From: an uncultured archaeon
Lineage (GTDB): Archaea > Asgardarchaeota > Jordiarchaeia > Jordiarchaeales > Jordiarchaeaceae
NCBI GenBank assembly: GCA_964510585.1
Contig: CAZECW010000043.1
Location: forward strand, 1 to 13,760
Direction: 5' to 3'
DNA length: 13,760 nt
Below the pieces are notes generated by a model. It did no database searches, was not told the origin of the DNA, and saw nothing but the letters and a program-made list of their open reading frames with translations. Positions 1 to 13,183 of this stretch are shown piece after piece (the first letter of the stretch is position 1; the number at the start of each line of letters is the position of its first letter). The position numbers and the translations under genes were made by a program.

Positions 1-860
1 GTGCTTGTTCCCATTCTCGTCGAGGTACCAGAAGGTTACGTGCCCAACCGTCGTAGCCCTCGATCCTACTTTCGGCGATTGCGGGATGTCGAATGGATGT
101 ACCTGCCTATGTATTTGATCATTTCCCTGCGGTTGTTTATCGTGTCCTCAAGCTCTCACGTAGAAACCCTTGGGATACTCGTGGAAGAGGCGGTGGATGA
201 GTGAACGGTCCTCGCGAGTGTCGTCGACGCGATCCTTCAAGTTTGTGAGCAGATGATACTTACTGCCAGGCCCTTTACGCAGCATCCTGTAGGGGGGAAG
301 ACTTTCATATCCATCCATTCGCCATTTTGTTTGAATCCCCCTCGGTCACCAGGGTGTGGATGTGTGGGTTCCACTTCATGTCTTTGCCGTAGGTGTGGAG
401 CACTGCTATCACGCCGGGGGGTTACCTCTTTTCCCAAGGTTCATTCAGTCACTTGGGTGATGGCGAGGATGGCGCAGTCCATGAGGACCTTCAGGAGCTT
501 TGTGGTTGGCCTAAAAACAGTGGTCTTTAGCTCATCTTGAATCGTCAGCACTATGTGGTGGTGTTTGACTTTGAAGGTCTTCCTAATTGTGGTCGGTCCA
601 CTTGTTGGTGAAAATCCTGCTGCAGTGGATGCAGATTCTTTATTGAGTTGCATCCATGGTAGAGGGTCTTCTCTGATCCACACTTGGGGCAGCGGAACAT
701 TTTGAATCTCTTCTTCCCGCATTTGAGCATCTTTTGGTCTTCCTTCACCTCGACTTCCCTTGGGTTCTATTCTGTGCTTCAGCTTGTATGTGTCCCAGTT
801 GTGGTTGTTGGAGGAGATGTGGTTTATTGTGATCCTTTTGTTGGGCTTGTTTTCAAGCCG
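1..860 (-). pseudogene. IS91-family (HUH/Y2 rolling-circle) transposase pseudogene, multiple frameshifts, runs off the left edge of the window
   Basis: Stitching minus-strand frames gives, in order: KMLKCG..FRCPKCG..GCNS(R)ICIHC (IS91 N-terminal Zn-binding domain), VKHHHIVLTIQDEL, PGVIAVLHTYGKDMKWNPHIHTLVTEG (HUH motif HIH), AWQYHLL, FHEYPKGFYVRA, MIKYIGRYI(R)HPAIAESRIEGYDG..VTFWYLDENG (YxxxY catalytic tyrosines). At least eight indels or stops break the frame. The 5' boundary is approximate. Confidence 0.9.
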
Positions 861-1245
861 GTTCTGGGTCTAATTGCTTTTTGCACACGAAAATCTGGTT
901 CACTTGTATCGATTTAAGGAGTGTGGTGGCCCGAAACGTATACTTCCCGTTTACGGTAAAAAACCTTAACCGAAAAATATCCCAAAAATTCTGCGGATCT
1001 ATCGCCCGTAGGGCGCTGAGGAACGAACACCCATACGCTGGCGACGAGCCTGACGCTGTCAAAGCTGGTTGGACTGAGCCAACCGAAGTTCCGAATGGAA
1101 AGGCCGTATGGAAAAATACATATTTCCAGAGGCGGTTAAAAAGGCTCCCAAAGAAGGCATCGATTTGAGTAAAAAGCGGAGCCCAGGTTTGTGGCTGCGG
1201 TTCTGGTGGCTGATCACCAGCCAAAACCAGTTTTGAACGCACGTT

Positions 1246-2085
1246 TCATTTCCAAATACTGACGGTATCATATGTCACTGGGCTGCGATTTTTTGTACAT
1301 TCTGAGGGTTTTATTTTAAATTGTAGCTGACTAGCGGAAGTATCTATCCATCCGCTTTTTGTCCGATGGTTGCCGCTTTTTCTTTGGAGTTCTACACGAC
1401 CTATTAATAAACTTCCTCTTGGTGTTATTCTTACGTCGCCTTTACAGTAAATATCAAGCACATCTTTGGTGGGCAGAACATAATAATAAGCCAAGCCTTC
1501 TTGTCGCTTAACTATGATAAAAAATTCAATGTTTTCATCGCCGATAAATATGTCTTTTAGAATTTTCACTTTGTTTTCATTAAAGAATCTTATCATGTTT
1601 TCTATGGTTTGCTGTTCCATTTGATTTAGGAACGTTCTCCTTCCTTTGCTGAGTTTACCTGGTGACGTCCCTAAGAGTTCAGCCTCACTTTTGAGTTCTT
1701 CAATCGAAACAGGATTGCCCTTTACATCAACCTCACCAACAAACTTCTTTAAAGCTATGTATACATCTTTTGGTATTGACCATTTTTGGGCATAAAAATC
1801 TACATGCTTTCTTTCAACATGATTATAATCAAATCCGATATCAACATCAAATTCCTTTGCAGATATTAAGATACGTCTGCCGTTAGATGTTATGGCTATA
1901 TCTGCCTTTGCTCGAGGGGGACACTTGGATGCGGAGTATAACTCTAAACGTAAACCAGACAAATCTCCTATAGCTTTGATTATTTTCTTGCCAACTTCAT
2001 CATTGGTGTTTATTGCATTTATGATTCTATCTTCAGCTTTTAGGCCTCTTCTTGCTGCTTTCGAAGCCAACTTTTTATCCTCCAT
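1246..2085 (-). CDS. Type II restriction endonuclease, HinP1I/MspI-like family (279 aa)
   Basis: Colinear similarity to R.HinP1I as I recall it: ASKAARRGLKAE18DRI, KAD62I, ISAK77, YNHVERKHVDFYAQKW, LKKFVGEV, RRTFL, and the C-terminal ITPRGSLLIGRVELQRK...QLQFKIKPSE (HinP1I: LSPRGSINFGRVTIQRK...MLQFKIDPTE). Confidence 0.88.
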   Translation of the reverse strand: MEDKKLASKAARRGLKAEDRIINAINTNDEVGKKIIKAIGDLSGLRLELYSASKCPPRAKADIAITSNGRRILISAKEFDVDIGFDYNHVERKHVDFYAQKWSIPKDVYIALKKFVGEVDVKGNPVSIEELKSEAELLGTSPGKLSKGRRTFLNQMEQQTIENMIRFFNENKVKILKDIFIGDENIEFFIIVKRQEGLAYYYVLPTKDVLDIYCKGDVRITPRGSLLIGRVELQRKSGNHRTKSGWIDTSASQLQFKIKPSECTKNRSPVTYDTVSIWK

Positions 2086-2280
2086 CTATTGTTAATGCTT
2101 CTGAGATTATAGCGAGCACACTCTATAGGTTTATCGGTTGTCTCTAATTATCGTCTATAATATGGAGAGCATTTAATTTTGGTTCTGGATAATTATATCT
2201 TATTAATCATTCAAATATCGCACCGCTTCTTTGAATCAGTGCGTTTGCCTGTAAATCTTTTTAATGCCATGCCGTGATAA

Positions 2281-4431
2281 TTAGCAGCATAAAACGTTCT
2301 TAAGTAGAGAGTAGAGTTCACGCAGAATTGTTGAATCTTCAATTCCAATGATTTCAAACAAAGTTTTATCCATTTCTAATCTAAAGTCTTCCCACAGTTG
2401 AAACACTAGTGGCTCTAATTTTCTTTCAGCCATTTTATCTAGGTTATTGGCAAGCTCTTGCAGTGCATGTTTATCTAATAAGTTTACATTGATAACTGGC
2501 ATCCTTAGGTAGTCTTCCTCCAAGAATCGTGTCCATCTCTCGCTTATTTTCCTACTCGCAACAATGAAATATGCAATAAACAGTGAGCTATTGAACCATA
2601 ACGCTAAAGCTTTGTCCTTAAGATCATCATTAAATGTTGATATATAGAAATTTTTAGATGCTGTTAAGGGTTCTTGTGTGTAGCATGCAAAAACGCCACG
2701 TTTGCTGAAAGATGGGTCAATCTTGTCAGGTAAAAATATGCGCCCGAAAGGCTTTTTCACATTTATTTGCCTATTCACATGGCTATACCAATATCGTCCA
2801 AATGCTCTTACCGCTGGTTTTGCGGTGGAGTGTAGCTTCCCCCACCTGATATACTCAGCAATATCAGGAGGTAGTTCTGACTCATTTTTTGGAGGGATTG
2901 AAAAAAAGTAGTGCTTAACCAATGGGATAATACAGTCTACATATAGTTCTGGTTTTCTCAAAGCAGGAGTTATAAACTCTCTATCGATATGAAGCTCCAT
3001 TTCCGTATCGTTGTTTTTTATCAATATTTCCTCAGCATTCTCAGCAACAATTCTCCAATATTTATTTGGAATAAGGAAGAATTCGGGGCCATACATTTCA
3101 ATGCCTCGCACAATTCGTTTTTCGTTGAAAGCATCTGACCAAGTAGCCACCACGCCTCTTTTAGCTGCCTGTGCAAAGATCTTAGTTATCAGTTCTCTCA
3201 ATGGATTTTGACCAAAGAGGGTTAACCAATTCATGTGCCAAGGATATGGAACTTTTGAAATGTTGACCCAGTTTAGGCGGCTATTCGTTAACCTGGCCCC
3301 TTTAAATATATTAGAAAGTTCTTCTAATAGATTTAAATCGTAGGAGTCGATCGTTAAAAACGCTGTTTCAAAATCAGTTTTTCTTTTATTTGCTATTAAT
3401 ACCAGTTCTTTAAATCCGCTGTCGATTGAAAACGACGGTTCGAAAAAGTCCACCATAGCTTGGATCCAGTATTTATCCTTAAGCAGAGCTTTAGCCGCTT
3501 CACCATACAAAGTGTAAAATGTCGACACAGGAAGGACTGATACTAACAAACCATCTTCTTCCAAAAGATAGTCCATCAAAAAAAGCGATATTAATTGAAG
3601 ATTCTGTTGTCTTCTTTTAACATACTTATCGTATCCCAATTTTTGAACGAATTTAGTTAGGAAGACTCTATAGTCTTTATCAAGGATTTCCCACCTTGTA
3701 AACGGAGGATTTGTGAGAATCACATTAGCCTTAGGAACCATTTCTTTTGATAGCTCAGTATAAGACTCGGTATATGACAAGAGAGATTGTGATGTTGGCG
3801 TTTGATAAACCATTTTAAAGGCATCTCCAACGATTATCTTAGCCTTTTGGTATTCTCCTTTTAAAGCATGTGCCACTGCTGAATATGCTACCAATGCGGA
3901 GAGAGGATGAGGCTCAATCCCCCAGATTTTGTTGATATGTGATGGTGGAAGTTCTTTTATGGCTTCAGATAACGTTAATCCAGAACCAAGGAAAGGGTCT
4001 GACAGTATTAAGGGGCGTTCATATCTCTTCGCGTACTCTAAAGCAAGAAGTGCCATTAGTCTCAATCCGATTGGCTTAGTATAATAAGCTGCCAGCCTCT
4101 TTCTGTTAGCGGGAGCTATTAACCTCGCCACTTTGATCTGGCTTTCAAAAATATCTTCTAATGCTAACGTTTCCTGTTTGTGGGTCACAAGTTCTTCTAG
4201 CACGAAGATATCCTTCTGAGGCAGCGATGCAAGCGACTTTAAAGGAGCGAAATTTGTTAACTTAATTAGAGTCGAAATATCCGGCATATTTGTTGATTTA
4301 AGAATAGCTGCCAAGGAAGTGACGATAATTTCTAAGGCTGCAGCTGAATCTATGACGTCCCTCACTTTAAGAATGGCCAATAAGCGTTTTATTAACTCTT
4401 TATTTTTTATCTCTTTAAACATTTTCAGCAT
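2281..4431 (-). CDS. Gamma-class amino (N6-adenine or N4-cytosine) DNA methyltransferase with C-terminal target-recognition domain (716 aa)
   Basis: Motif order X (AAYYTKP), I (DPFLGSG), II (WGIE), III (IIVGDAF), IV (ILTNPPF), then DGLLVSVLP. The long C-terminal region resembles TaqI/Eco57I-type TRDs (KALALWFNSSL...YLRMPVI). No fused nuclease domain is apparent. Confidence 0.9.
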   Translation of the reverse strand: MLKMFKEIKNKELIKRLLAILKVRDVIDSAAALEIIVTSLAAILKSTNMPDISTLIKLTNFAPLKSLASLPQKDIFVLEELVTHKQETLALEDIFESQIKVARLIAPANRKRLAAYYTKPIGLRLMALLALEYAKRYERPLILSDPFLGSGLTLSEAIKELPPSHINKIWGIEPHPLSALVAYSAVAHALKGEYQKAKIIVGDAFKMVYQTPTSQSLLSYTESYTELSKEMVPKANVILTNPPFTRWEILDKDYRVFLTKFVQKLGYDKYVKRRQQNLQLISLFLMDYLLEEDGLLVSVLPVSTFYTLYGEAAKALLKDKYWIQAMVDFFEPSFSIDSGFKELVLIANKRKTDFETAFLTIDSYDLNLLEELSNIFKGARLTNSRLNWVNISKVPYPWHMNWLTLFGQNPLRELITKIFAQAAKRGVVATWSDAFNEKRIVRGIEMYGPEFFLIPNKYWRIVAENAEEILIKNNDTEMELHIDREFITPALRKPELYVDCIIPLVKHYFFSIPPKNESELPPDIAEYIRWGKLHSTAKPAVRAFGRYWYSHVNRQINVKKPFGRIFLPDKIDPSFSKRGVFACYTQEPLTASKNFYISTFNDDLKDKALALWFNSSLFIAYFIVASRKISERWTRFLEEDYLRMPVINVNLLDKHALQELANNLDKMAERKLEPLVFQLWEDFRLEMDKTLFEIIGIEDSTILRELYSLLKNVLCC

Positions 4432-4461
4432 CCTATTTTTTATATAATTCTCTGGGCGTAC

Positions 4462-4477
4462 AAAAGTTTTTAGTGCA
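4462..4477 (-). promoter_or_regulatory. Repeated 16-bp motif TGCACTAAAAACTTTT (BRE/TATA-like), copy 1, upstream of the MTase
   Basis: Minus strand reads TGCACTAAAAACTTTTGTACGCCC. The 16-mer ends 30 nt before the MTase ATG at 4431, a spacing compatible with an archaeal BRE-TATA promoter. It is identical over 16 bp to the copy at 13384-13399. Confidence 0.6.
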
Positions 4478-4558
4478 TTTTTAAACAGAAAGATTGGAGT
4501 AGTGCTTCAGCGCAACACACCAAACGCTTTTACTGTATGTATTCAATTTTGACCAATT

Positions 4559-5065
4559 TTAGGTCGTAATAATTTCTACAAAATTTTTGAAGGTTTCGGA
4601 CTTTTCTATAGCTTTTTTGATATCCACCTCTTCCTTTGCTAATCTTTTGTAGATTTCGGGACTTTTAATGTATTGTTTGCCCCTTTTCTGCATTAGTTCC
4701 CTAAGTTCCCCTTCTGGATTTATTATTTCCTCTGGATTGTTTACAGAGAGCCCTGCAAGGATCCACGACTCTACACTTCTTTTTACAGCGATTACCTGTG
4801 ACTGTAATATTTGACTTTCTAGTTGCCTGACTTTTCTTGTTATTTTGTTTATGAGGGCGGTTGTATCTCTACCCGCTCTATGGAGATCTTTAAGTATTAT
4901 GGCTTTATCAAATTCCCCCGTTAGAGCTTTTAGAAGGCGGCTTACCTTTTCTGGTCTATTCCCTCTCATAGGGTGTACTTTACATTTAACCTGGAGTTTT
5001 TCGACAATGCCTTCAACGAAACCTCTGTCGGTTAAGCCTTCAACTATTATTAAGGTGCTGTTCAT
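4559..5065 (-). CDS. Small TOPRIM-fold protein (DUF4276/DUF4435/OLD-TOPRIM-like putative nuclease), 168 aa
   Basis: N-terminal IIVEGLTD TOPRIM motif, ILKDLH (DxH at the DxD position) and SVESWILAG. The preferred start ATG at 5065 overlaps the ATPase stop as ATGA (5062-5065), indicating translational coupling. The ORF track start at 5095 is probably too long. Confidence 0.8.
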   Translation of the reverse strand: MNSTLIIVEGLTDRGFVEGIVEKLQVKCKVHPMRGNRPEKVSRLLKALTGEFDKAIILKDLHRAGRDTTALINKITRKVRQLESQILQSQVIAVKRSVESWILAGLSVNNPEEIINPEGELRELMQKRGKQYIKSPEIYKRLAKEEVDIKKAIEKSETFKNFVEIITT

Positions 5066-6174
5066 GGCGTTCCACCGACTATCCCAGATAACCATGCTTC
5101 GCCTAGGGTGCCTCCTTCCTCCAAAAACCGCTTTACGCGCTCCATCTCACTAGTGGTGGACAACTTTTTCACTTTGGTTTCCAAGTCTTCTTTTCCTACC
5201 AAGTAAACTTCTTCTGGTCTGACGTAATCCAGCAGATATGGTGAATGTGTCATTATAACAACTTGGGATGGGGAATCCCTAGCTAGGCTCATCAAAGTCT
5301 CAAGCAAATAAGGATGTATACAGTTCTCAGGCTCCTCCAAAACCACAAGACTGAAACCACCGTATAAAGCGGAGATTATGGCAAGAATACGCAAAGTACC
5401 ATCAGAAATATTATGAGGCTCTAGAGGCTCATCTAAACCTTTAATTTTAATCCATATCTCAACGCTAGTTCCTTCTATGTGTGGGATAATCTCCTCAACT
5501 TCGGGAATCATGCTACGCAATGTTTCTTCGATGCGTCCAAAATCCTTTCGCCTCTCAGTATAAAGATAAAGCAAATAACGAGCCAAATTTTCACCATGGT
5601 ACTTCAGGAAAGGTTGTTCGGCAACAGAATTTTCAAGCCGAAGAATATCTGGAGCAAATGAATGAACAGAAATCTTTCCTATACTAGAGGCCAAATGATA
5701 AATTTCTGCTTCCATATCTGAAGGTAGAGAAGTTAATACGCTTTTAGAAGTCATTCTACCATAATAAGCTTGTCCACCCCCGGAAATTAAACCCCCTCTT
5801 GTCTCACCCTTAATACGAACACCGTACTCACTGCCATCATGAGTTATAACTGGTTCATTAGCCATTAATATTTGTTCAAAATATCTTTCATTAGTCAATT
5901 CTAGCCTGTATCCATACTTAGTACTTCCAATAAGCATTTCCAACACAATATGTACTCCTACGGCAGGGTTAAAATTAAAAGATAAGTCCCTCAAGCGTTT
6001 ATAGCCTTCCAAAGCGGGTATCCCCTCTTTTGCATGTTTTGCTACCAATCGAAAAACCTTTGCAATGTTGCTTTTGCCGCTGGCATTCGGCCCTATGAAA
6101 ACATTTACTTTTCCCAGTTCTATATCAACATTCTTGAGGCTTAGAAAGTTTTTAACATGAAGTCGTGTAAACAT
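5062..6174 (-). CDS. ABC-superfamily ATPase (AAA_15/AAA_21, OLD/AriA-like), about 370 aa
   Basis: Starts MFTRLHVKNFLSLKNV, a typical N-terminus for this family. Walker A GPNASGKS, signature ISDGT, Walker B/D-loop VVLEEPENCIHP, H-loop MTHSPY, conserved C-terminal LGEAWLSG. Confidence 0.9.
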   Translation of the reverse strand: MFTRLHVKNFLSLKNVDIELGKVNVFIGPNASGKSNIAKVFRLVAKHAKEGIPALEGYKRLRDLSFNFNPAVGVHIVLEMLIGSTKYGYRLELTNERYFEQILMANEPVITHDGSEYGVRIKGETRGGLISGGGQAYYGRMTSKSVLTSLPSDMEAEIYHLASSIGKISVHSFAPDILRLENSVAEQPFLKYHGENLARYLLYLYTERRKDFGRIEETLRSMIPEVEEIIPHIEGTSVEIWIKIKGLDEPLEPHNISDGTLRILAIISALYGGFSLVVLEEPENCIHPYLLETLMSLARDSPSQVVIMTHSPYLLDYVRPEEVYLVGKEDLETKVKKLSTTSEMERVKRFLEEGGTLGEAWLSGIVGGTP

Positions 6175-6382
6175 GGTTTTGACAAACTCCGTGCATTTAA
6201 CTTTTAAAACACCCAATTTAAACATTGTTACTAAACATTACAACACTCAAATCGATTTTTTGTTTGAGTCATGAGCTGGACTGTACATGAACCGATAGAT
6301 TAACCCATGTGGATACAACTTCTTATTTTTGCGCACCTATACAATTACTCTTCCAATAATTTTTCTAGATTATTCGAGCATA

Positions 6383-6398
6383 AAAAGCTTTTAGTGCA
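6383..6398 (-). promoter_or_regulatory. Repeated 16-bp motif, copy 2 (TGCACTAAAAGCTTTT), upstream of the ATPase-TOPRIM pair
   Basis: 15/16 match to copies 1 and 3. It is followed by TAT, giving a TATA-like TTTTTAT. It lies about 200 nt upstream of the preferred ATPase start, in the gap after the radical SAM gene. Confidence 0.5.
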
Positions 6399-6488
6399 CT
6401 TTGGATATTAGATTATCAACTAACCTTTGTACGGCTTGCCTCAAAGCTAGGGAGGCAGAAATCTCTAAACTCCTACTTTTAGTGTTTC

Positions 6489-7550
6489 CTACAGTATACA
6501 GTTGCATGAGACTAGTTCCCAGACGCCGCTTGTGCCAGGGGGATTCAGTAATCCTTTACTGACCAGCTTCTGCCACATGTCTGATGTCTCCTTGCAAAGG
6601 GCTATGTGTTTCTCATATCCGTTTTCTCTAAGTTTCTTTATAATGTGAGTGTATATTTCGATTCTTAACTCCGTGTTTAACTTGAGTCCCCACCCAGTTT
6701 TTTCACTTTTATCAAGATACTTAAGCCACTCCCTATCTTTTATAAACCTCAACGTTTTTGTTAACCCTCTCAAACTTCCAATAGTTATTCTTTCAGGTTT
6801 TAAACCATATTCCTTAAGCATCATTTTTATGAGTACAGCGTAGTCTATTCTCCAGCCATCAATGGGAATTATGGGATCTAAGCGAATCCTAAATGTGAAT
6901 CCTTTTCCTTGGAGAAGCTTAGATGCTTCTAAACGCTCATTTGGAGGCGCTGCTCCCTTTTCGTAGAGTTGGGAAACTCTAGGAGGGTTAACCGAAAATG
7001 CGATTATGAAGAATTCATTTAAGCCTTTATCTTCCAGAAGTGGGGCTACGTGGCGGACACCACCCTTTGTCAGCAGTAGAATCTTATGGTTTGGATGACA
7101 CTCTAGCACCGGTAGTACAGCTTCAATCAGTGCTCGGGTCCAGTCTGGCATAGCTAAACTGTCAGTTAGCTCACCAGCATTTAGCAGAACCCTTAATCCT
7201 TGACTGTCAGCCCACCCCAGAAACTGATCAAGAATCCTAGAAGCATCCGCTAAATTCTTCATTTTTGGAGCCTTATTACCAAAAAAAGTCCCATTAAGAT
7301 AGCAGTAGCTACAGTTAAACGGGCAACCTATGAGTGGCTTAAATTCCCAGAAATGAGGACAAACAATATCCCCAGCCGGCTTACTAAACAAAGCAATAAA
7401 GCTAGAATAAAAAAACCTTCTAGGAACACTAACTTCCATATAAGCACCTTTCTCCAACACTCCCTTGCCTTCACGCCCAAAGTAAGAATGTAAGCTAGAT
7501 GCATCCCTAACCAACTCGTCCCTACGAACATAATAGTGTGCAACACTCAA
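6489..7550 (-). CDS. Spore photoproduct lyase (SplB)-like radical SAM protein (353 aa, TTG start)
   Basis: CxxxCxxC motif GCPFNCSYCYL, followed by AGELTDSLA, LLLTK, AFSVNP...YEKGAAPPNERLEA, RLDPIIP..GW, ITIGSLR and ALCKE, colinear with the SPL fold. Confidence 0.88.
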   Translation of the reverse strand: MSVAHYYVRRDELVRDASSLHSYFGREGKGVLEKGAYMEVSVPRRFFYSSFIALFSKPAGDIVCPHFWEFKPLIGCPFNCSYCYLNGTFFGNKAPKMKNLADASRILDQFLGWADSQGLRVLLNAGELTDSLAMPDWTRALIEAVLPVLECHPNHKILLLTKGGVRHVAPLLEDKGLNEFFIIAFSVNPPRVSQLYEKGAAPPNERLEASKLLQGKGFTFRIRLDPIIPIDGWRIDYAVLIKMMLKEYGLKPERITIGSLRGLTKTLRFIKDREWLKYLDKSEKTGWGLKLNTELRIEIYTHIIKKLRENGYEKHIALCKETSDMWQKLVSKGLLNPPGTSGVWELVSCNCIL

Positions 7551-8150
7551 AACTTATAACCCCTTAAGAATTCTAAAACAGACTACTATAACCGTTGAAG
7601 GACTATGTTATTAATTGTTCTATAAACATCTTTACTTTTTCGAGAATCTTTATGAGGGAAAGAAGGAAGAGCTGAGGGGTCGATAGAAGGATAAATAGGA
7701 TTTTATCGATTTTTGATGACACGATGTATTAGGTATGTATTTTTTGGTGTTTGGTATGTAGGAGTGTTTTTCTTAAATCTTCTAATACGTCTTGGAATTG
7801 GAAAAGAAGGAGTATATAGCCTCCTTCACAAGTAGTCAACAAACAAAAACACATACTCCCTGTGCAAAAAACATGCCTATAACATTAGGTCCTATTAATC
7901 TCCAAAAAATTAATAGAGAATATAAATGCTGATATTAATCCTGTTTCTGGAAGAGTTTAATACTGTCCATAGTTTCACGAATAATTCTTATATTCTTCTT
8001 TGATCTAATTGATATTTAGAACCAAAAAAGTATAATGGAAAGAGGAATTAGTGAACATTAAACATGATTAGCGATTTTATCTTTTTTGGGACATATGTCA
8101 TTATGTTTATGCGTCTTTCTTGTTTCGTCAGGTTATAATTTATCTATCCA

Positions 8151-10430
8151 GTGAAAAGACAGAAGATGAGGGTCGGTTTTATCTTGTTTATCAAAAAATG
8201 GGAAGACTATTTTAAATGTCCAGAAAAATGTACCTTTGAATATTTTAAAAAAAGTAGATTAGATGGTAAACCCATTGCATATGCTTTAAGCCAAGCAGAT
8301 GAAGAACTCTTGGCGCACTATGAATTCAAAACTAGTAAAACAGTACTCCCCTGTTTAAATCCATTTATTGGAAACAATCATCAGAAGCTGGAGAACTGGC
8401 TCTTGGAAAATTTTACGGATTTACTTAAAGAAAGATCTGCTTTGGAGGAAGAATCTGTAAACGTCTTAAAAAAAGAGTTTATTGATTTTCGTATGCATCT
8501 TTTCGAATTGTTGTATACGCATTCAATGTCGGAATCGCACAAGATTCTATTCTTTAAAAAACAGTTGAAGAAAGAAGGTTTAGATCCTAGCATTGTAGAT
8601 GAAATTGCTAGATATCTAATTCCGGGAAGCACCCTATTTCTTCTTGAGCTATATCTCGGAATCTTATTTGATAGTACAAATATGTATGCCCTTAAGAAAG
8701 TTCAGGATACCATTACTAAACTTAAAAGGGACAAATTAAAGGAAGTTCTTGGAAAACCCGAATTATTGGTTACACCCTGGAAGCATCAAAATGAAGCTGT
8801 AGAAGCTTGGTTCAAATCAGGTCGGCGAGGAATTATAGAGATGGCCACTGCAACTGGCAAAACCTTAGTGGGGCTGAAAGCCGCCCTGGATTTATGGAAG
8901 AGAAACGAGAATGAGAAATTAGAAGTTCTTGTTCTAACGCATTCTATTGCAATATTAAATCAGTGGAGAAGAGAAGCAATAGATAAATTAGGCTTCATCG
9001 ACGACCCCCTTTTAGATTATAAAATACCGTTATGTTACAAAGGTTTCAGAATTTCATTTAACACTCTACAAACCGTTTACAAAGCTCCTCAAAATTACTA
9101 TGCGGATCTTTTAATAGTAGACGAAGTACATCATGCAGCAGCTATACAATTCAGGAAGGCTCTTGAACTGCCATGTAAATGGAAGATGGGACTTTCAGCC
9201 ACAATTGAAGGCAAAGAGCGACCATACTATCTGGAAAAAAATTTAGGACGTATAGTTTATACACTTTCCCTTAGTGATGCCATCGAGAGAGGCATTATAC
9301 CAGAATTTGAATGGAATATTTATGTGACATATTTGAGTGTTGAAGAAGAATATGAGTTCAAAGAAATCTCCAAAAAAATCCGTGACCTCTTTGACAAGAT
9401 ATCTCAAGACGAAAAAAATATTGAAAGTATTTCCAATGGAAAAATTAAGCGACTTGAAACTCTATCAGATTTTGTAAGATTGATTGAAAAGGCCAGATAC
9501 GAGGGAAAAGAAATTCCAGATGAGTGGAAAATCTTGAGAGCACTAATATTTCAAAGGCGCAGAATTCTATATACCTCCAGTCCAAAAATAGATAGAGCAC
9601 TGGAAATTGCAAGTAGAGAGGCAACCGAGAAGAAGTGCGTAATTTTCACTATGGATATAGAATCATGTGAAAAAATCGCTGAAGCGCTTAAGCCTTTTAA
9701 CGCGTTATTTGTGCATTCTGGAATCTCCGATAAAGAAAGAGATAATAGACTCAGAAGTTTCAGAGAATCTCCGAGAGGTGTGCTTGTCGCACCGAAAATG
9801 CTAGACGAAGGCATCGATGTACCTGATGCAGAAGTTGGGATAAATGTAGCTTCGTCCAAGACGAAATTACAGTTAATTCAAAGAATAGGGAGAATCCTCA
9901 GGAAAAAATCAGGCAAGAAACCCGTTTTCCATCATTTCGTAGCGATACCTAGCGAAAAGGAATTCATCTTGCAGGAAGATGGGCTTAACTACTTGGAAGA
10001 ACTATCATGGGTACTAGATACAGCACTTCGTATGGGCGTTAAGATAAGAATACCTGATAGCGAAATTAAAATAACTGAACTCCACGAGAAATCTGAAGAA
10101 TTTGTAGGAAAGTTATTAAAACAGGGAGTAAAGATATCCGTCGGAAGCTATGGAGTTATTAGGATGGATAACATTCTATCACAATTTAAAGAACCAGTGA
10201 AAAATAGACTGATGAAAATGCTTGAGGAGGAGACAGAGAATCTTACGGACGAAAAATGGCATGAATTGTTACTTAAAGCTCACCGTGAAGAAGAGAAGTT
10301 AGAAGGCGATCAATTAAATTTGCCCGGAAACTGGTGGTTATTAATAGCAGGTGGAAGGAACCCTAAAATTATAAAAGAAATCATAGGGAAATCTCTCGGC
10401 ATAACCTACGAGGATAATCCAGAAGAGTGA
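8151..10430 (+). CDS. SF2 DExH helicase/translocase (ResIII/XPB-like) with about 205-aa unknown N-terminal and about 160-aa C-terminal extensions (759 aa)
   Basis: Q motif PWKHQNEA, motif I MATATGKT, motif II IVDEVHH, motif III GLSAT, motif V MLDEGIDVPD, motif VI QRIGRILR. The start could be GTG 8151 or ATG 8166. Confidence 0.9.
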   Translation: MKRQKMRVGFILFIKKWEDYFKCPEKCTFEYFKKSRLDGKPIAYALSQADEELLAHYEFKTSKTVLPCLNPFIGNNHQKLENWLLENFTDLLKERSALEEESVNVLKKEFIDFRMHLFELLYTHSMSESHKILFFKKQLKKEGLDPSIVDEIARYLIPGSTLFLLELYLGILFDSTNMYALKKVQDTITKLKRDKLKEVLGKPELLVTPWKHQNEAVEAWFKSGRRGIIEMATATGKTLVGLKAALDLWKRNENEKLEVLVLTHSIAILNQWRREAIDKLGFIDDPLLDYKIPLCYKGFRISFNTLQTVYKAPQNYYADLLIVDEVHHAAAIQFRKALELPCKWKMGLSATIEGKERPYYLEKNLGRIVYTLSLSDAIERGIIPEFEWNIYVTYLSVEEEYEFKEISKKIRDLFDKISQDEKNIESISNGKIKRLETLSDFVRLIEKARYEGKEIPDEWKILRALIFQRRRILYTSSPKIDRALEIASREATEKKCVIFTMDIESCEKIAEALKPFNALFVHSGISDKERDNRLRSFRESPRGVLVAPKMLDEGIDVPDAEVGINVASSKTKLQLIQRIGRILRKKSGKKPVFHHFVAIPSEKEFILQEDGLNYLEELSWVLDTALRMGVKIRIPDSEIKITELHEKSEEFVGKLLKQGVKISVGSYGVIRMDNILSQFKEPVKNRLMKMLEEETENLTDEKWHELLLKAHREEEKLEGDQLNLPGNWWLLIAGGRNPKIIKEIIGKSLGITYEDNPEE

Positions 10431-10823
10431 ATAAAATTTTACATAAAGCAGAAATTATTAAGAATATTTAGACTTCTTAATGCCTTCGGGACACGCTATC
10501 TTATTGTAGTGATGATAGGGCTGCTGTTGTGATTTCTATCAATCCTTCGATTCCAAGCGTGATTCTCACAAGAGCCGCCACCAAAACGTTGTAATCCCTT
10601 ATTTTGTTAAGAACTCTCCAGCGATCTCATAACCATTGTAAAACTATGATTTTCTTATTTCAGTTTATATCGGCAAATATGATTGTCAAGCAAAAAATAA
10701 GAAATTTATTATTTATTAAAATGAATTAAAAAATAATTATTGCTTTTCCATTTTTCTTTATTATTTTAGAAAAAAAATTAATATAAACAAAGAAATTTCA
10801 TAGAATTTAAAGACAAATTACCT

Positions 10824-11747
10824 TTATGCCTCTTTTTCTTTACGTTTAGTACAAAATATAACGCCTCTTCCAACTCTAAAGTTAAGTGTTTCTGCTTCTT
10901 CTAGTGGGAAAGAGTTCTCGTATTCTATTACTGTGCTAATCCATAGTTTATGTAATTTCCATAATAGATTTTCTACGTCTTTTGGTACATCAATTAGTTT
11001 AAGCCCTATTTCTTTAGCATCGAAGAGTGTTATTGGAGCGCTGTGAGATTTATAACCTTCACATAGCTTCTTTGCTATTTCTTTAGCTTTCTCGCTATCA
11101 CCCTTAAACATTCTTCTCGTCAGTAGTTTTTCGGCTAAGCTTTTTATGTATTCCGATAATCTTTCAAAATCTCTCAATTCTGTTATGGGTATTCTATTGA
11201 GGGTTTCTTTCAACACATCAAGCTTCATTTCTCCTAAATCCATTTTTGCGATCATCTCTATTGATTCTACAAAAGTTCGTACTGGGACATAACGCTTAGT
11301 TTCTGGGCTTTCGATCATGAGTTCTACGGGGCCAAGTTCTGAAGCCGGAAGCATTACTATTTCATCCGCTGCGCATGTCAAAAGTGTAGCAGCACTTTTA
11401 GCATATCGAGGAATGATAATTGTTAACTTTTTAGTAGCACACTCTTGAAGTAAAGTCCCTATGATGTAAGCCTGGTCTGGGTCGCCCCCATGAGAAAAAA
11501 GAATCACATCAATATTCGATTTTTCCTCAATCACAGATATAGCATCATAAATCTCGTCGACGTCAGGTTTCGATATTTCCCTATTAAAACTAAATAACAT
11601 AGGAAGAACGACAGTCTTTCTAACATTTTCAAGTTGTTTAAGTAAAGGTTCGACTTCTTTCTTGAAATGTTCCAACGGTTCAGGTAGCATAGGTATGTAT
11701 CCACTTTCACTGTACTTAAGTTTTTCAAACTCTAGCCCCTTCCTCAT
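10824..11747 (-). CDS. SDH-type (ClpP/crotonase-class, DUF114/SDH_sah-like) serine protease (307 aa)
   Basis: IDVILFSHGGD, IIPRYAKS118AATLLTCAADEIVM, ELGPVE142, SH235SAPITLFDAKEIGL match the family's Ser, Asp and His motifs, with Glu at the Asp position. Confidence 0.85.
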   Translation of the reverse strand: MRKGLEFEKLKYSESGYIPMLPEPLEHFKKEVEPLLKQLENVRKTVVLPMLFSFNREISKPDVDEIYDAISVIEEKSNIDVILFSHGGDPDQAYIIGTLLQECATKKLTIIIPRYAKSAATLLTCAADEIVMLPASELGPVELMIESPETKRYVPVRTFVESIEMIAKMDLGEMKLDVLKETLNRIPITELRDFERLSEYIKSLAEKLLTRRMFKGDSEKAKEIAKKLCEGYKSHSAPITLFDAKEIGLKLIDVPKDVENLLWKLHKLWISTVIEYENSFPLEEAETLNFRVGRGVIFCTKRKEKEA

Positions 11748-12316: not shown

Positions 12317-13183
12317 TTAAACAATCTCAATGAGTTGTATGGCTTTTTTATATCTTTGTCCTATTTGTCCTTTTTTTTCGCATAAGTTTTCTATAGTAGG
12401 ACGATCAAATAGTTGTATTTGTGGTGTTTCGTCAAAGATTTTTAATAATTTTTCTTCAGTTAGCTTTAAAACCTCTTCTCTCTGCATTTTATTTTTTAGT
12501 GTAATTAGAGCAACAGTAGATATTTTGGCTTTGTCCGATGTTTTATCATTTTTAAGTTTCTCGGCTAGTTTTGATATATTTTCCACAAATTTGCCTATAT
12601 CATCTATCTCCAAAGTCTTTTTAATTTCGCCTACATGGACTTTTTTTAAATTTTCGGTAATCGGAAACTCTTCCGCGTAAACATCTACTTCAATATCTCC
12701 AAAATTGGGATAAAAGCAATTTTTCCATACGCCACCCACAATTTCTCTTAGAAATCCCCTCATAAGTGGCTCTAGCGCATATCCCTTGGATATCTTTACA
12801 ATTTCCTTTAATTTATCCGGATTCCTAACCCATCTGGCCGTGAGTCTAGTGTCCGCTTCTCGGGTAATAATTACACCAAAAATCTCAGCTAACCTAAGAA
12901 TATTATCTATAATATCTCGAAGCCCTATAATTTTTCCAAGTGAACTCTTTCTCTTTAACAGCCAAGCCGTAATTTTTCCACCAAAAAGAAATGGCAATTC
13001 AAAACCCATACCCTTAGCTAAATTGACTATGCACTCTTTAAGTTTTGCGTTCTCCTCTTTTGTGAGTTTGTCGGCTCCTTCATTCCTAGCTTTACGAAGT
13101 AAAATTGCACAATCTTTTAAATAATTTATGAGTTCGAAAATCTTTTCATCCTCAAACTCTTTAATATCCATATTAAAACACAT
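12317..13183 (-). CDS. PD-(D/E)xK restriction-endonuclease-like protein with helical N-terminal domain (288 aa; start may be ATG 13171)
   Basis: The C-terminal half carries KGYALE138, DIEVD167VYA and VHVGE186IK188, followed by DIGKF, a spacing typical of Mrr-like/REase-fold nucleases. Confidence 0.7.
   Translation of the reverse strand: MCFNMDIKEFEDEKIFELINYLKDCAILLRKARNEGADKLTKEENAKLKECIVNLAKGMGFELPFLFGGKITAWLLKRKSSLGKIIGLRDIIDNILRLAEIFGVIITREADTRLTARWVRNPDKLKEIVKISKGYALEPLMRGFLREIVGGVWKNCFYPNFGDIEVDVYAEEFPITENLKKVHVGEIKKTLEIDDIGKFVENISKLAEKLKNDKTSDKAKISTVALITLKNKMQREEVLKLTEEKLLKIFDETPQIQLFDRPTIENLCEKKGQIGQRYKKAIQLIEIV

What the first reader, a model, noticed from the sequence alone, without database searches (positions are those of the whole stretch)
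1246..4431. HinP1I-family restriction enzyme paired with a gamma-class amino-methyltransferase instead of a C5-cytosine MTase
Established: HinP1I (GCGC) and MspI (CCGG) recognise adenine-free sites and are protected by m5C MTases. Seen: the only adjacent MTase has NPPF in gamma order and no PC/ENV motifs of C5 MTases. Inference: either the nuclease has shifted to an A-containing site, or this gamma-class enzyme writes N4-methylcytosine (plausible in a thermophile avoiding m5C deamination), or the pair is a recent mosaic. Either of the first two would be a new R-M architecture and potentially a new specificity.
Basis: partly seen in the sequence, partly recalled or inferred. Interest (0 to 1): 0.75.

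Follow-up and report, generated by a model that had tools for sequence, protein, structure and literature searches.

The report
Archaeal HinP1I-like restriction enzyme with amino-methyltransferase
A conserved two-gene restriction-modification cassette of archaea pairs a HinP1I-type nuclease, which probably still cuts GCGC, with a large TaqI/BseCI-like amino-methyltransferase, which would then have to protect the site by N4-methylcytosine instead of the usual 5-methylcytosine.

Summary
Window 1246-2085 (-) encodes a HinP1I-family nuclease: Pfam 87 bits, and the predicted fold matches HinP1I-DNA at TM 0.81. Window 2281-4431 (-) encodes a 716-aa gamma-class amino-methyltransferase with motif I before an invariant TNPPFTRW. 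It has no PC or ENV motif, and no C5 methyltransferase gene was found in the 96%-complete assembly.

The pair is not a recent mosaic. The same methyltransferase family sits beside a HinP1I-family nuclease in at least 13 independent loci, in unrelated genomic contexts. These come from Bathyarchaeia, Sulfolobales, Desulfurococcaceae, Korarchaeum, Stygiolobus and the Asgard Freyrarchaeum.

Across the nuclease family, partners fall into three methyltransferase classes: C5 (one a full M.HhaI homologue, hence GCGC), beta-class SPPY, and this gamma class. The residues that read G1 and C2:G in HinP1I are kept family-wide and do not track partner class. The methyltransferase's C-terminal half is as conserved as its catalytic core.

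I therefore favour GCGC protected by m4C (about 0.55) over an adenine-bearing site with m6A (about 0.3). Neither the site nor the methylated base could be determined here. The neighbouring ATPase and Toprim genes are a separate system. I rate this a new variant of a known kind, of moderate interest.

The scan's earlier notes on this cassette concern this same window only.

The parts
1246..2085 (-). R gene: 279-aa HinP1I-family PD-(D/E)XK restriction endonuclease (P0001). Catalytic E18, D62 and S75-x-K77. Y87 corresponds to the HinP1I Phe91 wedge, R92 to K96, H89 to Q93 and K236 to K223.
   Evidence: Pfam PF11463 at 87.2 bits. PDB 1ynm by sequence. AF2 model against 2fkc_A at TMt 0.81. Family alignments.
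2281..4431 (-). M gene: 716-aa gamma-class amino-methyltransferase (P0002). Residues 1-104 form a helical N-terminal domain. The Rossmann core carries motif I (DPFLGSG, 145-151) and motif IV (TNPPFTRW, 240-247). Residues from about 380 to 716 form a conserved C-terminal DNA-recognition half. The database form (P0042, 713 aa) starts at the second ATG, window 4422.
   Evidence: (motif invariant in 34 homologues). The fold is nearest BpuSI, CamA and M.BseCI, with TMt about 0.68-0.70 for the last two.
2086..2280 (-). 195-bp spacer between M and R. A TATA-like CTATAAT lies at window 2106-2112, 21-27 nt upstream of the R start, which suggests R has its own promoter (inference only).
   Evidence: Sequence read.
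4432..4558 (-). Upstream region of M. An A/T-rich TATA-like stretch (TTATATAAAAA) lies at about 4437-4447.
Evidence: Sequence read.

Best explanation
This is a self-contained, horizontally mobile Type IIP restriction-modification cassette.

The upstream gene makes a monomeric gamma-class amino-methyltransferase built like M.TaqI, M.BseCI and CamA. It has an N-terminal helical domain, a Rossmann core with motif I before TNPPFTRW, and a large C-terminal recognition domain. The downstream gene makes a HinP1I-fold nuclease. By analogy with HinP1I, it binds a short palindrome as a monomer, wedges an aromatic residue (Y87) into the DNA, and nicks one strand after the other using E18, D62 and S75-x-K77.

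Shown here:
- the family membership of both proteins;
- the conserved pairing of the two families;
- the independence of the pair from the neighbouring genes.

Inferred:
- the nuclease still recognises GCGC, or a site with that core;
- because GCGC has no adenine, the methyltransferase protects it by writing N4-methylcytosine.

On this reading the cassette is the third methylation chemistry that HinP1I-type nucleases use. The other two are M.HhaI-like m5C enzymes in bacteria and small beta-class SPPY enzymes in DPANN archaea.
For: Pairing. The methyltransferase family and a HinP1I-family nuclease are adjacent in L002, L003/L004 and L005, L008 and L009, and L010, L011 and L023. They are also adjacent in L035-L037, on the P0175 contig and in L076. 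Orientation is tandem or convergent, and the flanking genes are unrelated.

Patchy distribution. The pair was found in 1 of 6 genomes of the own genus and 4 of 400 of the phylum searched. This fits a mobile R-M module.

Site. The HhaI paper (PMC7026639) says HinP1I K96 reads G1, and K223 with Q93 reads the C2:G pair. In 132 family representatives the equivalents are R64/K63, K127 and Q101/H27. The equivalents of Q236 and K238 are also kept. None of these varies with partner class.

Sister clade. L021's partner is a full-length M.HhaI homologue (377 bits, recognition domain included), so L021 very probably cuts GCGC. Its subclade is sister, at 99% SH-aLRT, to the gamma-linked P0162 subclade.

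Methyltransferase. The C-terminal half is 44-46% identical and the catalytic core 45-49% identical between enzymes whose nuclease partners are only 23-27% identical. This argues for one specificity across the family.

No alternative protector. No C5 methyltransferase was found in the assembly.

Precedent. Gamma-class Type I M2 subunits with NPPY write m4C, and m4C is reported in Type IIG-like systems (PMC5100572). A GCG(m4C) motif was seen by PacBio in Asgard archaea (PMC11529989).
Against: The methyltransferase's catalytic motif is NPPF. In the only gamma-class case dissected (PMC5100572), NPPF subunits made m6A and NPPY subunits made m4C.

Its Pfam matches are to N6-adenine families. Every close solved structure (CamA, M.BseCI, BpuSI, MmeI) is an adenine methyltransferase.

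Only three of HinP1I's base-reading residues could be taken from a held paper. In P0001 two of them are substituted (K96 to R, Q93 to H). The beta9-beta10 loop and a roughly 30-residue insert (about 120-147) differ from HinP1I, so a changed or lengthened site is possible.

L021 and the gamma-linked nucleases are only about 30% identical.

Several beta-class PF01555 genes elsewhere in the genome could in principle protect GCGC.

No methylome or cleavage data exist for any member.
Confidence: 0.55

Rival explanations
1. The pair is a cognate Type II R-M system, but the nuclease lineage has drifted to a palindrome that contains A:T pairs. Candidates are a CG-core site such as TCGA or ACGT, a 5-6 bp site such as GCWGC, or a flanked xGCGCx site. 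The methyltransferase is then an ordinary N6-adenine enzyme, as its NPPF motif and its structural relatives suggest.
For: NPPF is invariant in 34 homologues. Pfam matches are to N6_Mtase and Eco57I. The nearest solved folds are all m6A enzymes, including M.BseCI (ATCGAT) and CamA. In PMC5100572 NPPF subunits were the adenine-specific ones. P0001 has H89 and R92 where HinP1I has Q93 and K96, plus an extra insert and a longer recognition loop.
Against: The K/R and Q/H exchanges also occur in nucleases partnered with C5 or M.HhaI-like enzymes, and within one gamma-linked clade (P0031 has Q). They therefore do not mark a specificity switch. Three deeply diverged nuclease clades share one evenly conserved methyltransferase family. 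All would then have had to shift to the same new site.
Confidence: 0.3
2. The methyltransferase and nuclease are components of a larger multi-gene defence system. On this reading they work with the adjacent ABC-type ATPase and Toprim protein (MADS- or PARIS-like), and perhaps the radical SAM enzyme, rather than as a stand-alone R-M pair.
For: All five genes are co-oriented in window 1246-7550. PADLOC gives weak matches to mad2 (32 bits), mad3 (96 bits) and mad4 (34 bits). NCBIfam gives MAD3 and MAD4 hits.
Against: None of the homologous loci examined has the ATPase, Toprim or radical SAM genes next to the pair. The NCBIfam scores are far below the cut-offs (97.5 against 420; 25 against 160). 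The ATPase scores much better against HEC-01A models (167 bits), a separate two-gene candidate system.
Confidence: 0.05
3. The nuclease is not restrained by the neighbouring methyltransferase. GCGC would be protected by an unlinked beta-class m4C enzyme, or the nuclease is inactive, and the large methyltransferase is a solitary enzyme with another role.
For: Orphan copies of the methyltransferase exist (L006, L007). One locus has a broken nuclease beside an intact methyltransferase (L036). The genome holds several PF01555 genes.
Against: The tight linkage across phyla and in both orientations is hard to explain without a functional dependency. The catalytic residues of P0001 are intact. Orphan methyltransferases and decayed nucleases are the usual fate of R-M cassettes.
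Confidence: 0.07

Closest known systems
HinP1I restriction-modification system (R.HinP1I G^CGC with the C5 methyltransferase M.HinP1I) and the structurally related MspI
   Same: Same nuclease family and fold (PF11463; 2fkc_A at TMt 0.81). The catalytic E18, D62 and x-K arrangement is the same. The aromatic wedge is kept, as are the QRK(G/S)G and QLQFK recognition strands, so monomeric sequential nicking is probable.
   Different: Sequence identity is only about 23%. S75 replaces Q81 in the catalytic motif; S is the majority state in the family. K96 becomes R and Q93 becomes H. There is an extra insert of about 30 residues and a longer beta9-beta10 loop. The partner is a 716-aa gamma-class amino-methyltransferase, not a C5 enzyme.
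M.BseCI (ATCGAT), CamA (CAAAAA) and M.TaqI (TCGA): monomeric gamma-class N6-adenine methyltransferases with a C-terminal recognition domain
   Same: Motif I precedes motif IV (NPPF/Y). The whole-chain fold matches at TMt about 0.68-0.70, including the C-terminal domain. The enzyme is a single polypeptide with no separate specificity subunit.
   Different: Sequence identity is about 15-17%. P0002 has an extra helical N-terminal domain of about 100 residues and is about 140 residues longer. Its partner nuclease belongs to a family whose known and inferred sites lack adenine, so the target base may be cytosine N4.
M2 subunits of m4C/m6A Type I systems such as PacII (PMC5100572)
   Same: Gamma-class amino-methyltransferases of the N6_Mtase family with an NPP(Y/F) motif IV that methylate cytosine N4. 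They show that this fold and motif do not imply adenine.
   Different: Those are Type I subunits that need an S subunit and a second M subunit, and they carry NPPY. Here there is a stand-alone Type II enzyme with NPPF and its own recognition domain.
M.HhaI/HhaI-type GCGC systems, and the beta-class SPPY methyltransferases paired with HinP1I-like nucleases in DPANN archaea (L012, L013)
   Same: They are partners of nucleases of the same family, presumably protecting the same GCGC core.
   Different: The folds and chemistries differ: C5 methylation, or small beta-class amino-methylation.

Membership tests
HinP1I restriction endonuclease family (PF11463) | Profile match above Pfam's gathering score | tested here: met
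   87.2 bits against a cut-off of 25, E 1.4e-24. The same family was found in the genome search.
HinP1I restriction endonuclease family (PF11463) | Two-sheet HinP1I/MspI fold over the whole chain | tested here: met
   AF2 model with pLDDT 93.9. 2fkc_A gives E 4e-18 and TMt 0.81 over 265 columns. 1ynm gives TMt 0.76. MspI 1sa3 gives 0.54.
HinP1I restriction endonuclease family (PF11463) | Catalytic E18, D62 and (Q81)-x-K83 | tested here: met
   E18, D62 and K77 are present, with S75 in place of Q81. In 132 representatives the counts are E 123, D 131, K 130, and S 95 against Q 33.
HinP1I restriction endonuclease family (PF11463) | Base-reading residues K96 (G1), and Q93 with K223 (the C2:G pair) | tested here: inconclusive
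   K223 is kept as K236. K96 is R92 and Q93 is H89. The same exchanges occur in members partnered with C5 enzymes. The full contact list of the HinP1I-DNA paper was not available.
HinP1I restriction endonuclease family (PF11463) | Recognition of GCGC and cleavage G^CGC | not testable with these tools
   This needs cleavage mapping. Word-avoidance analysis was uninformative.
Gamma-class DNA amino-methyltransferases (TaqI/BseCI/CamA type) | Motif I (FxGxG) N-terminal to motif IV ((D/N/S)PP(Y/F)), followed by a C-terminal recognition domain | tested here: met
   DPFLGSG at 145-151 and NPPF at 241-244. The C-terminal domain is folded and conserved. CamA and M.BseCI match at TMt 0.67-0.70.
Gamma-class DNA amino-methyltransferases (TaqI/BseCI/CamA type) | Profile match to N6_Mtase or Eco57I | tested here: met
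   The match is marginal for P0002: 21.8 against 20.4, and 26.0 against 25.3. 27 of 34 family members match each profile at E up to 0.01 (best 1.3e-8 and 7.1e-9).
Gamma-class DNA amino-methyltransferases (TaqI/BseCI/CamA type) | Methylated base is adenine N6 | not testable with these tools
   Motif IV does not decide the base: NPPY gamma-class enzymes write m4C (PMC5100572).
C5-cytosine methyltransferases (PF00145) | PC (motif IV) and ENV (motif VI) motifs; PF00145 profile | tested here: not met
   P0002 has no PC or ENV string. There is no PF00145 match in the window's proteins or in the whole assembly.
MADS (methylation-associated defence system) | mad2, mad3 and mad4 equivalogs above the curated cut-offs, and conserved co-occurrence | tested here: not met
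   MAD3 scores 97.5 against 420 and MAD4 25.2 against 160. mad2 scores 32 bits. The ATPase and Toprim genes are missing beside the pair in all homologous loci examined.
Type IIG fused restriction-modification enzymes (Eco57I/BpuSI type) | N-terminal PD-(D/E)XK nuclease domain fused to the gamma-class methyltransferase | tested here: not met
   Residues 1-113 of the model are almost entirely helical, with no beta-sheet. BpuSI aligns poorly (TMt 0.35, rmsd 15.8). The nuclease is a separate gene.

The most novel reading that the evidence does not exclude
A widespread, uncharacterised family of stand-alone Type II gamma-class methyltransferases writes N4-methylcytosine at GCGC. These enzymes are about 700 aa long, carry an invariant TNPPFTRW motif and have a TaqI/BseCI-like fold. 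On this reading they are the thermophile-compatible replacement for M.HhaI-type m5C protection of HinP1I-family nucleases. They would also show that neither motif IV nor fold class predicts the target base of amino-methyltransferases.
Probability: 0.5. Interest if true: 0.6.

Novelty: new variant of a known kind. Interest (0 to 1): 0.5.

Why it matters
If the methyltransferase writes m4C at GCGC, genome annotation pipelines that call every NPPF gamma-class enzyme 'N6-adenine' would be wrong for a whole archaeal family. That family is present in Bathyarchaeia, Thermoproteota, Korarchaeia and Asgard lineages.

The three partner classes of one nuclease family would then form a clean natural experiment. 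One restriction specificity would be served by m5C, beta-class m4C or gamma-class m4C, according to lineage and perhaps temperature.

A GCGC-specific m4C methyltransferase and thermostable HinP1I isoschizomers could also be useful reagents.

If the site instead contains adenine, the family would offer a HinP1I-fold enzyme with a new specificity.

Tried and rejected
1. Recognition-site avoidance. GCGC is under-represented in the own genome (observed/expected 0.71) and in the pair-bearing Thermogladius genome (0.79). It is equally depleted in two genomes without the pair (0.69 and 0.67). The G013 control rests on only 41 GCGC counts. The signal is therefore generic and says nothing about the site. 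TCGA and ACGT are not depleted in the own genome (1.00 and 0.99).

2. GCGC count in the window. There are 13 matches against 16.4 expected, so no signal.

3. Literature.
- The two HinP1I structure papers are not held, so only three base contacts could be taken second-hand from PMC7026639.
- MaeII (A^CGT) uses m5C and gave no lead.
- The archaeal R-M survey (PMC10609329) and the Blow et al. supplements gave no entry for this family.
- Supplementary Table S11 of PMC11529989, which links GCG(m4C) to genes, is not held.

4. Reaching Asgard genomes through L076 failed because the record is not held. The look-up of the Geoglobus acetivorans homologue returned nothing.

5. The MADS or multi-gene reading was rejected on context and scores.

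6. A sequence search of P0002 against solved structures found nothing. Only the fold search did.
Full report
**What is in the window**

The window is a whole 13.76-kb contig (C43) of a 3.78-Mb, 41.7% G+C, 96%-complete assembly. Judging from the nearest homologues, it is a Bathyarchaeia-like archaeon.

On the minus strand, window 2281-4431 encodes P0002 (716 aa). After a 195-bp spacer, window 1246-2085 encodes P0001 (279 aa).

P0001 matches Pfam R-HINP1I at 87.2 bits against a cut-off of 25 and the HinP1I chain 1ynm by sequence. Its AlphaFold model (pLDDT 93.9) is most like the HinP1I-DNA complex 2fkc_A (TMt 0.81 over the whole chain). Next come apo-HinP1I and MspI.

P0002 has DPFLGSG at 145-151 and NPPF at 241-244, and no PC, ENV or SPP string. 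It passes the Eco57I and N6_Mtase profiles only marginally. Its model (pLDDT 89.5) has three parts: a helical N-terminal domain, a Rossmann core and a large C-terminal domain. The best solved matches are BpuSI, CamA and M.BseCI, with TMt 0.67-0.70 for the last two over their whole length.

In addition, no C5 methyltransferase profile match exists anywhere in the assembly.

**Is the pairing real?**

Yes. Homologue lists for the two proteins share contig lengths and adjacent locus tags. Direct inspection shows the methyltransferase family next to a HinP1I-family nuclease in many places:
- a 209-kb metagenomic contig, between dapB and ribosomal protein genes (L002);
- a Sulfolobales MAG (L003/L004);
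- a provirus-like region (L005);
- a Bathyarchaeia MAG (L010);
- the complete genome of Thermogladius sp. KZ2Tp1 (L011);
- Stygiolobus (L023);
- three further genomes of the own phylum (L035-L037);
- a Logan contig (P0175);
- a Candidatus Freyrarchaeum guaymaensis MAG (L076).

More distant methyltransferase homologues (42-44% identical) in an ENA metagenome contig (L008) and a Korarchaeum MAG (L009) face a convergent protein of about 250 aa that has no precomputed Pfam hit. These proteins (P0162, P0163) align with P0001 and share every catalytic and recognition motif.

The flanking genes differ in every locus. The ATPase, Toprim, radical SAM and helicase genes of the window never accompany the pair. 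The cassette is therefore a two-gene unit that happens to sit in a defence island here.

It is rare and patchy: 1 of 6 genomes of the own genus and 4 of 400 of the phylum searched. Orphan methyltransferases (L006, L007) and a broken nuclease beside an intact methyltransferase (L036) also occur. This is what a mobile R-M module looks like. 'Recent mosaic' is refuted.

**What do HinP1I-type nucleases pair with elsewhere?**

A scan of species genomes and representative proteins gave three partner classes:

1. C5 methyltransferases, in bacteria (L014-L018, L021, L022, P0265) and one archaeon (L019).
2. Small beta-class PF01555 enzymes. The two complete ones carry SPPY and come from Nanoarchaeota and Pacearchaeota (L012, L013). 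A marine contig (L075) holds a truncated one whose motif IV lies off the contig.
3. The P0002 family.

L021's partner is a full-length homologue of M.HhaI (377 bits). The match includes the recognition segment GKGGQGERIYS...LSAYGGG, so that system almost certainly targets GCGC.

In a maximum-likelihood tree of 132 family members, the L021 subclade is sister, at 99% SH-aLRT, to the gamma-linked P0162/P0163/L023 subclade. The P0001 clade and P0175 lie nearby. The premise that this nuclease family is always protected by m5C is therefore too narrow, and the gamma-class pairing arose in, or spread to, at least three nuclease lineages.

**Which site and which base?**

This could not be determined directly. 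The indirect evidence leans towards GCGC.

The HhaI structure paper states that in HinP1I K96 reads G1, and K223 with Q93 reads the C2:G pair (PMC7026639). Among the 132 representatives:
- the K96 position is always basic (R 64, K 63);
- the K223 position is K in 127;
- the Q93 position is Q in 101 and H in 27;
- the QLQFK strand (HinP1I Q236 and K238) is almost invariant.

P0001 has R92, K236 and H89. The K/R and Q/H exchanges also occur in members partnered with C5 and M.HhaI-like enzymes. P0031, from P0001's own clade, has Q. Nothing at these positions tracks partner class.

On the methyltransferase side, motif IV is an invariant TNPPFTRW in 34 homologues. The C-terminal half is as conserved (44-46% identity) as the catalytic core (45-49%) between enzymes whose nuclease partners share only 23-27% identity. 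When specificity diverges, the recognition domain normally diverges faster than the core. Even conservation suggests a single target for the whole family.

If that target is GCGC, which has no adenine, an amino-methyltransferase can protect it only through N4-methylcytosine.

There is precedent:
- Gamma-class Type I M2 subunits with NPPY write m4C, and m4C is reported in Type IIG-like systems (PMC5100572).
- A GCG(m4C) motif was detected by PacBio in Asgard archaea (PMC11529989). The responsible gene is named only in a supplement that is not held.
- A member of the present pair is encoded in an Asgard Freyrarchaeum MAG. It is not the genome whose methylome was read.

**What speaks against this**

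- In the one dissected gamma-class case, the NPPF subunits were the adenine-specific ones.
- All close structural relatives of P0002 are m6A enzymes.
- P0001 carries an insert (about residues 120-147) and a longer beta9-beta10 loop than HinP1I, which could add or change contacts.
- The GCGC-anchored L021 nuclease is only about 30% identical to the gamma-linked ones.

I therefore put GCGC with m4C at about 0.55 and an adenine-bearing site with m6A at about 0.3.

Word avoidance did not help. GCGC is depleted to a similar degree in genomes with and without the pair.

**Comparison with what is known, and verdict**

The nuclease is a member of the HinP1I family: profile, fold and catalytic residues are met, while site and cleavage are untested.

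The methyltransferase is a gamma-class amino-methyltransferase of the TaqI/BseCI/CamA architecture. It is not a C5 enzyme. It is not a Type IIG fusion, because its N-terminal domain is almost entirely helical with no beta-sheet. It is not a MADS component, because scores are far below the cut-offs and its neighbours are not conserved.

The pairing is conserved but, as far as the held literature shows, uncharacterised. REBASE could not be consulted. It is best described as a new variant of a known kind: an ordinary Type IIP architecture with an unexpected class of protecting enzyme, whose target base is open.

Interest is moderate (0.5). A simple expression-and-methylome experiment would settle a question that bears on how amino-methyltransferase base specificity is predicted.

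Noticed in passing
window 4559-6225 (-): An AAA_21/ABC-type ATPase (387 aa; PADLOC HEC-01A at 167 bits, mad3 at 96 bits, AriA at 101 bits) overlaps by 34 nt a 178-aa Toprim/DUF4276 protein (mad4 at 34 bits). This is a split OLD-, PARIS- or MADS3-4-like two-gene candidate defence module. It is not conserved beside the R-M pair elsewhere.
   Followed up: partly
window 6489-7550 (-): A radical SAM protein with weak similarity to spore photoproduct lyase (PF20903 at 40 bits; TIGR04070 at 55 bits against a cut-off of 400) sits in the defence island. Its role is unknown.
   Followed up: no
window 8151-10430 (+): A 759-aa SF2 helicase matches PADLOC PbeA at 218 bits and the dnd restriction-enzyme domain TIGR04095 at 159 bits, below the cut-off. 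No phosphorothioation genes were seen in the window.
   Followed up: no
window 10824-11747 (-): An SDH-type ClpP-like serine protease (PF01972 at 72.6 bits) lies next to a 288-aa ORF (12317-13183) with no family match.
   Followed up: no
window 1-1245: This G+C-richer region (up to 53%) holds only short broken frames. One frame (551-748, -) gives a weak hit to the IS91 transposase zinc-binding domain (20.6 bits, below the cut-off). This is consistent with a decayed transposase at the edge of the island.
   Followed up: partly
L037 (G229:C84:8000-24430) 3876-10665: One P0002-family methyltransferase (694 aa) is followed by two HinP1I-like nuclease paralogues (307 and 301 aa, 40% identical). A 678-aa coiled-coil-like protein separates them. 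The 307-aa copy differs at the recognition segment (NLGVDKRW).
   Followed up: partly
L008 5817-6011 and L009 5841-6014: In the convergent form of the cassette, a 57-64-aa ORF overlaps the start of the methyltransferase gene. It matches MazE/AbrB in L008 and may be a controller protein. The window's tandem form has no such ORF.
   Followed up: no
own genome C115, C44, C5, C41, C212, C28: Several beta-class PF01555 amino-methyltransferase genes are present, and no C5 methyltransferase gene. The genome seems to rely wholly on amino-methylation.
   Followed up: no
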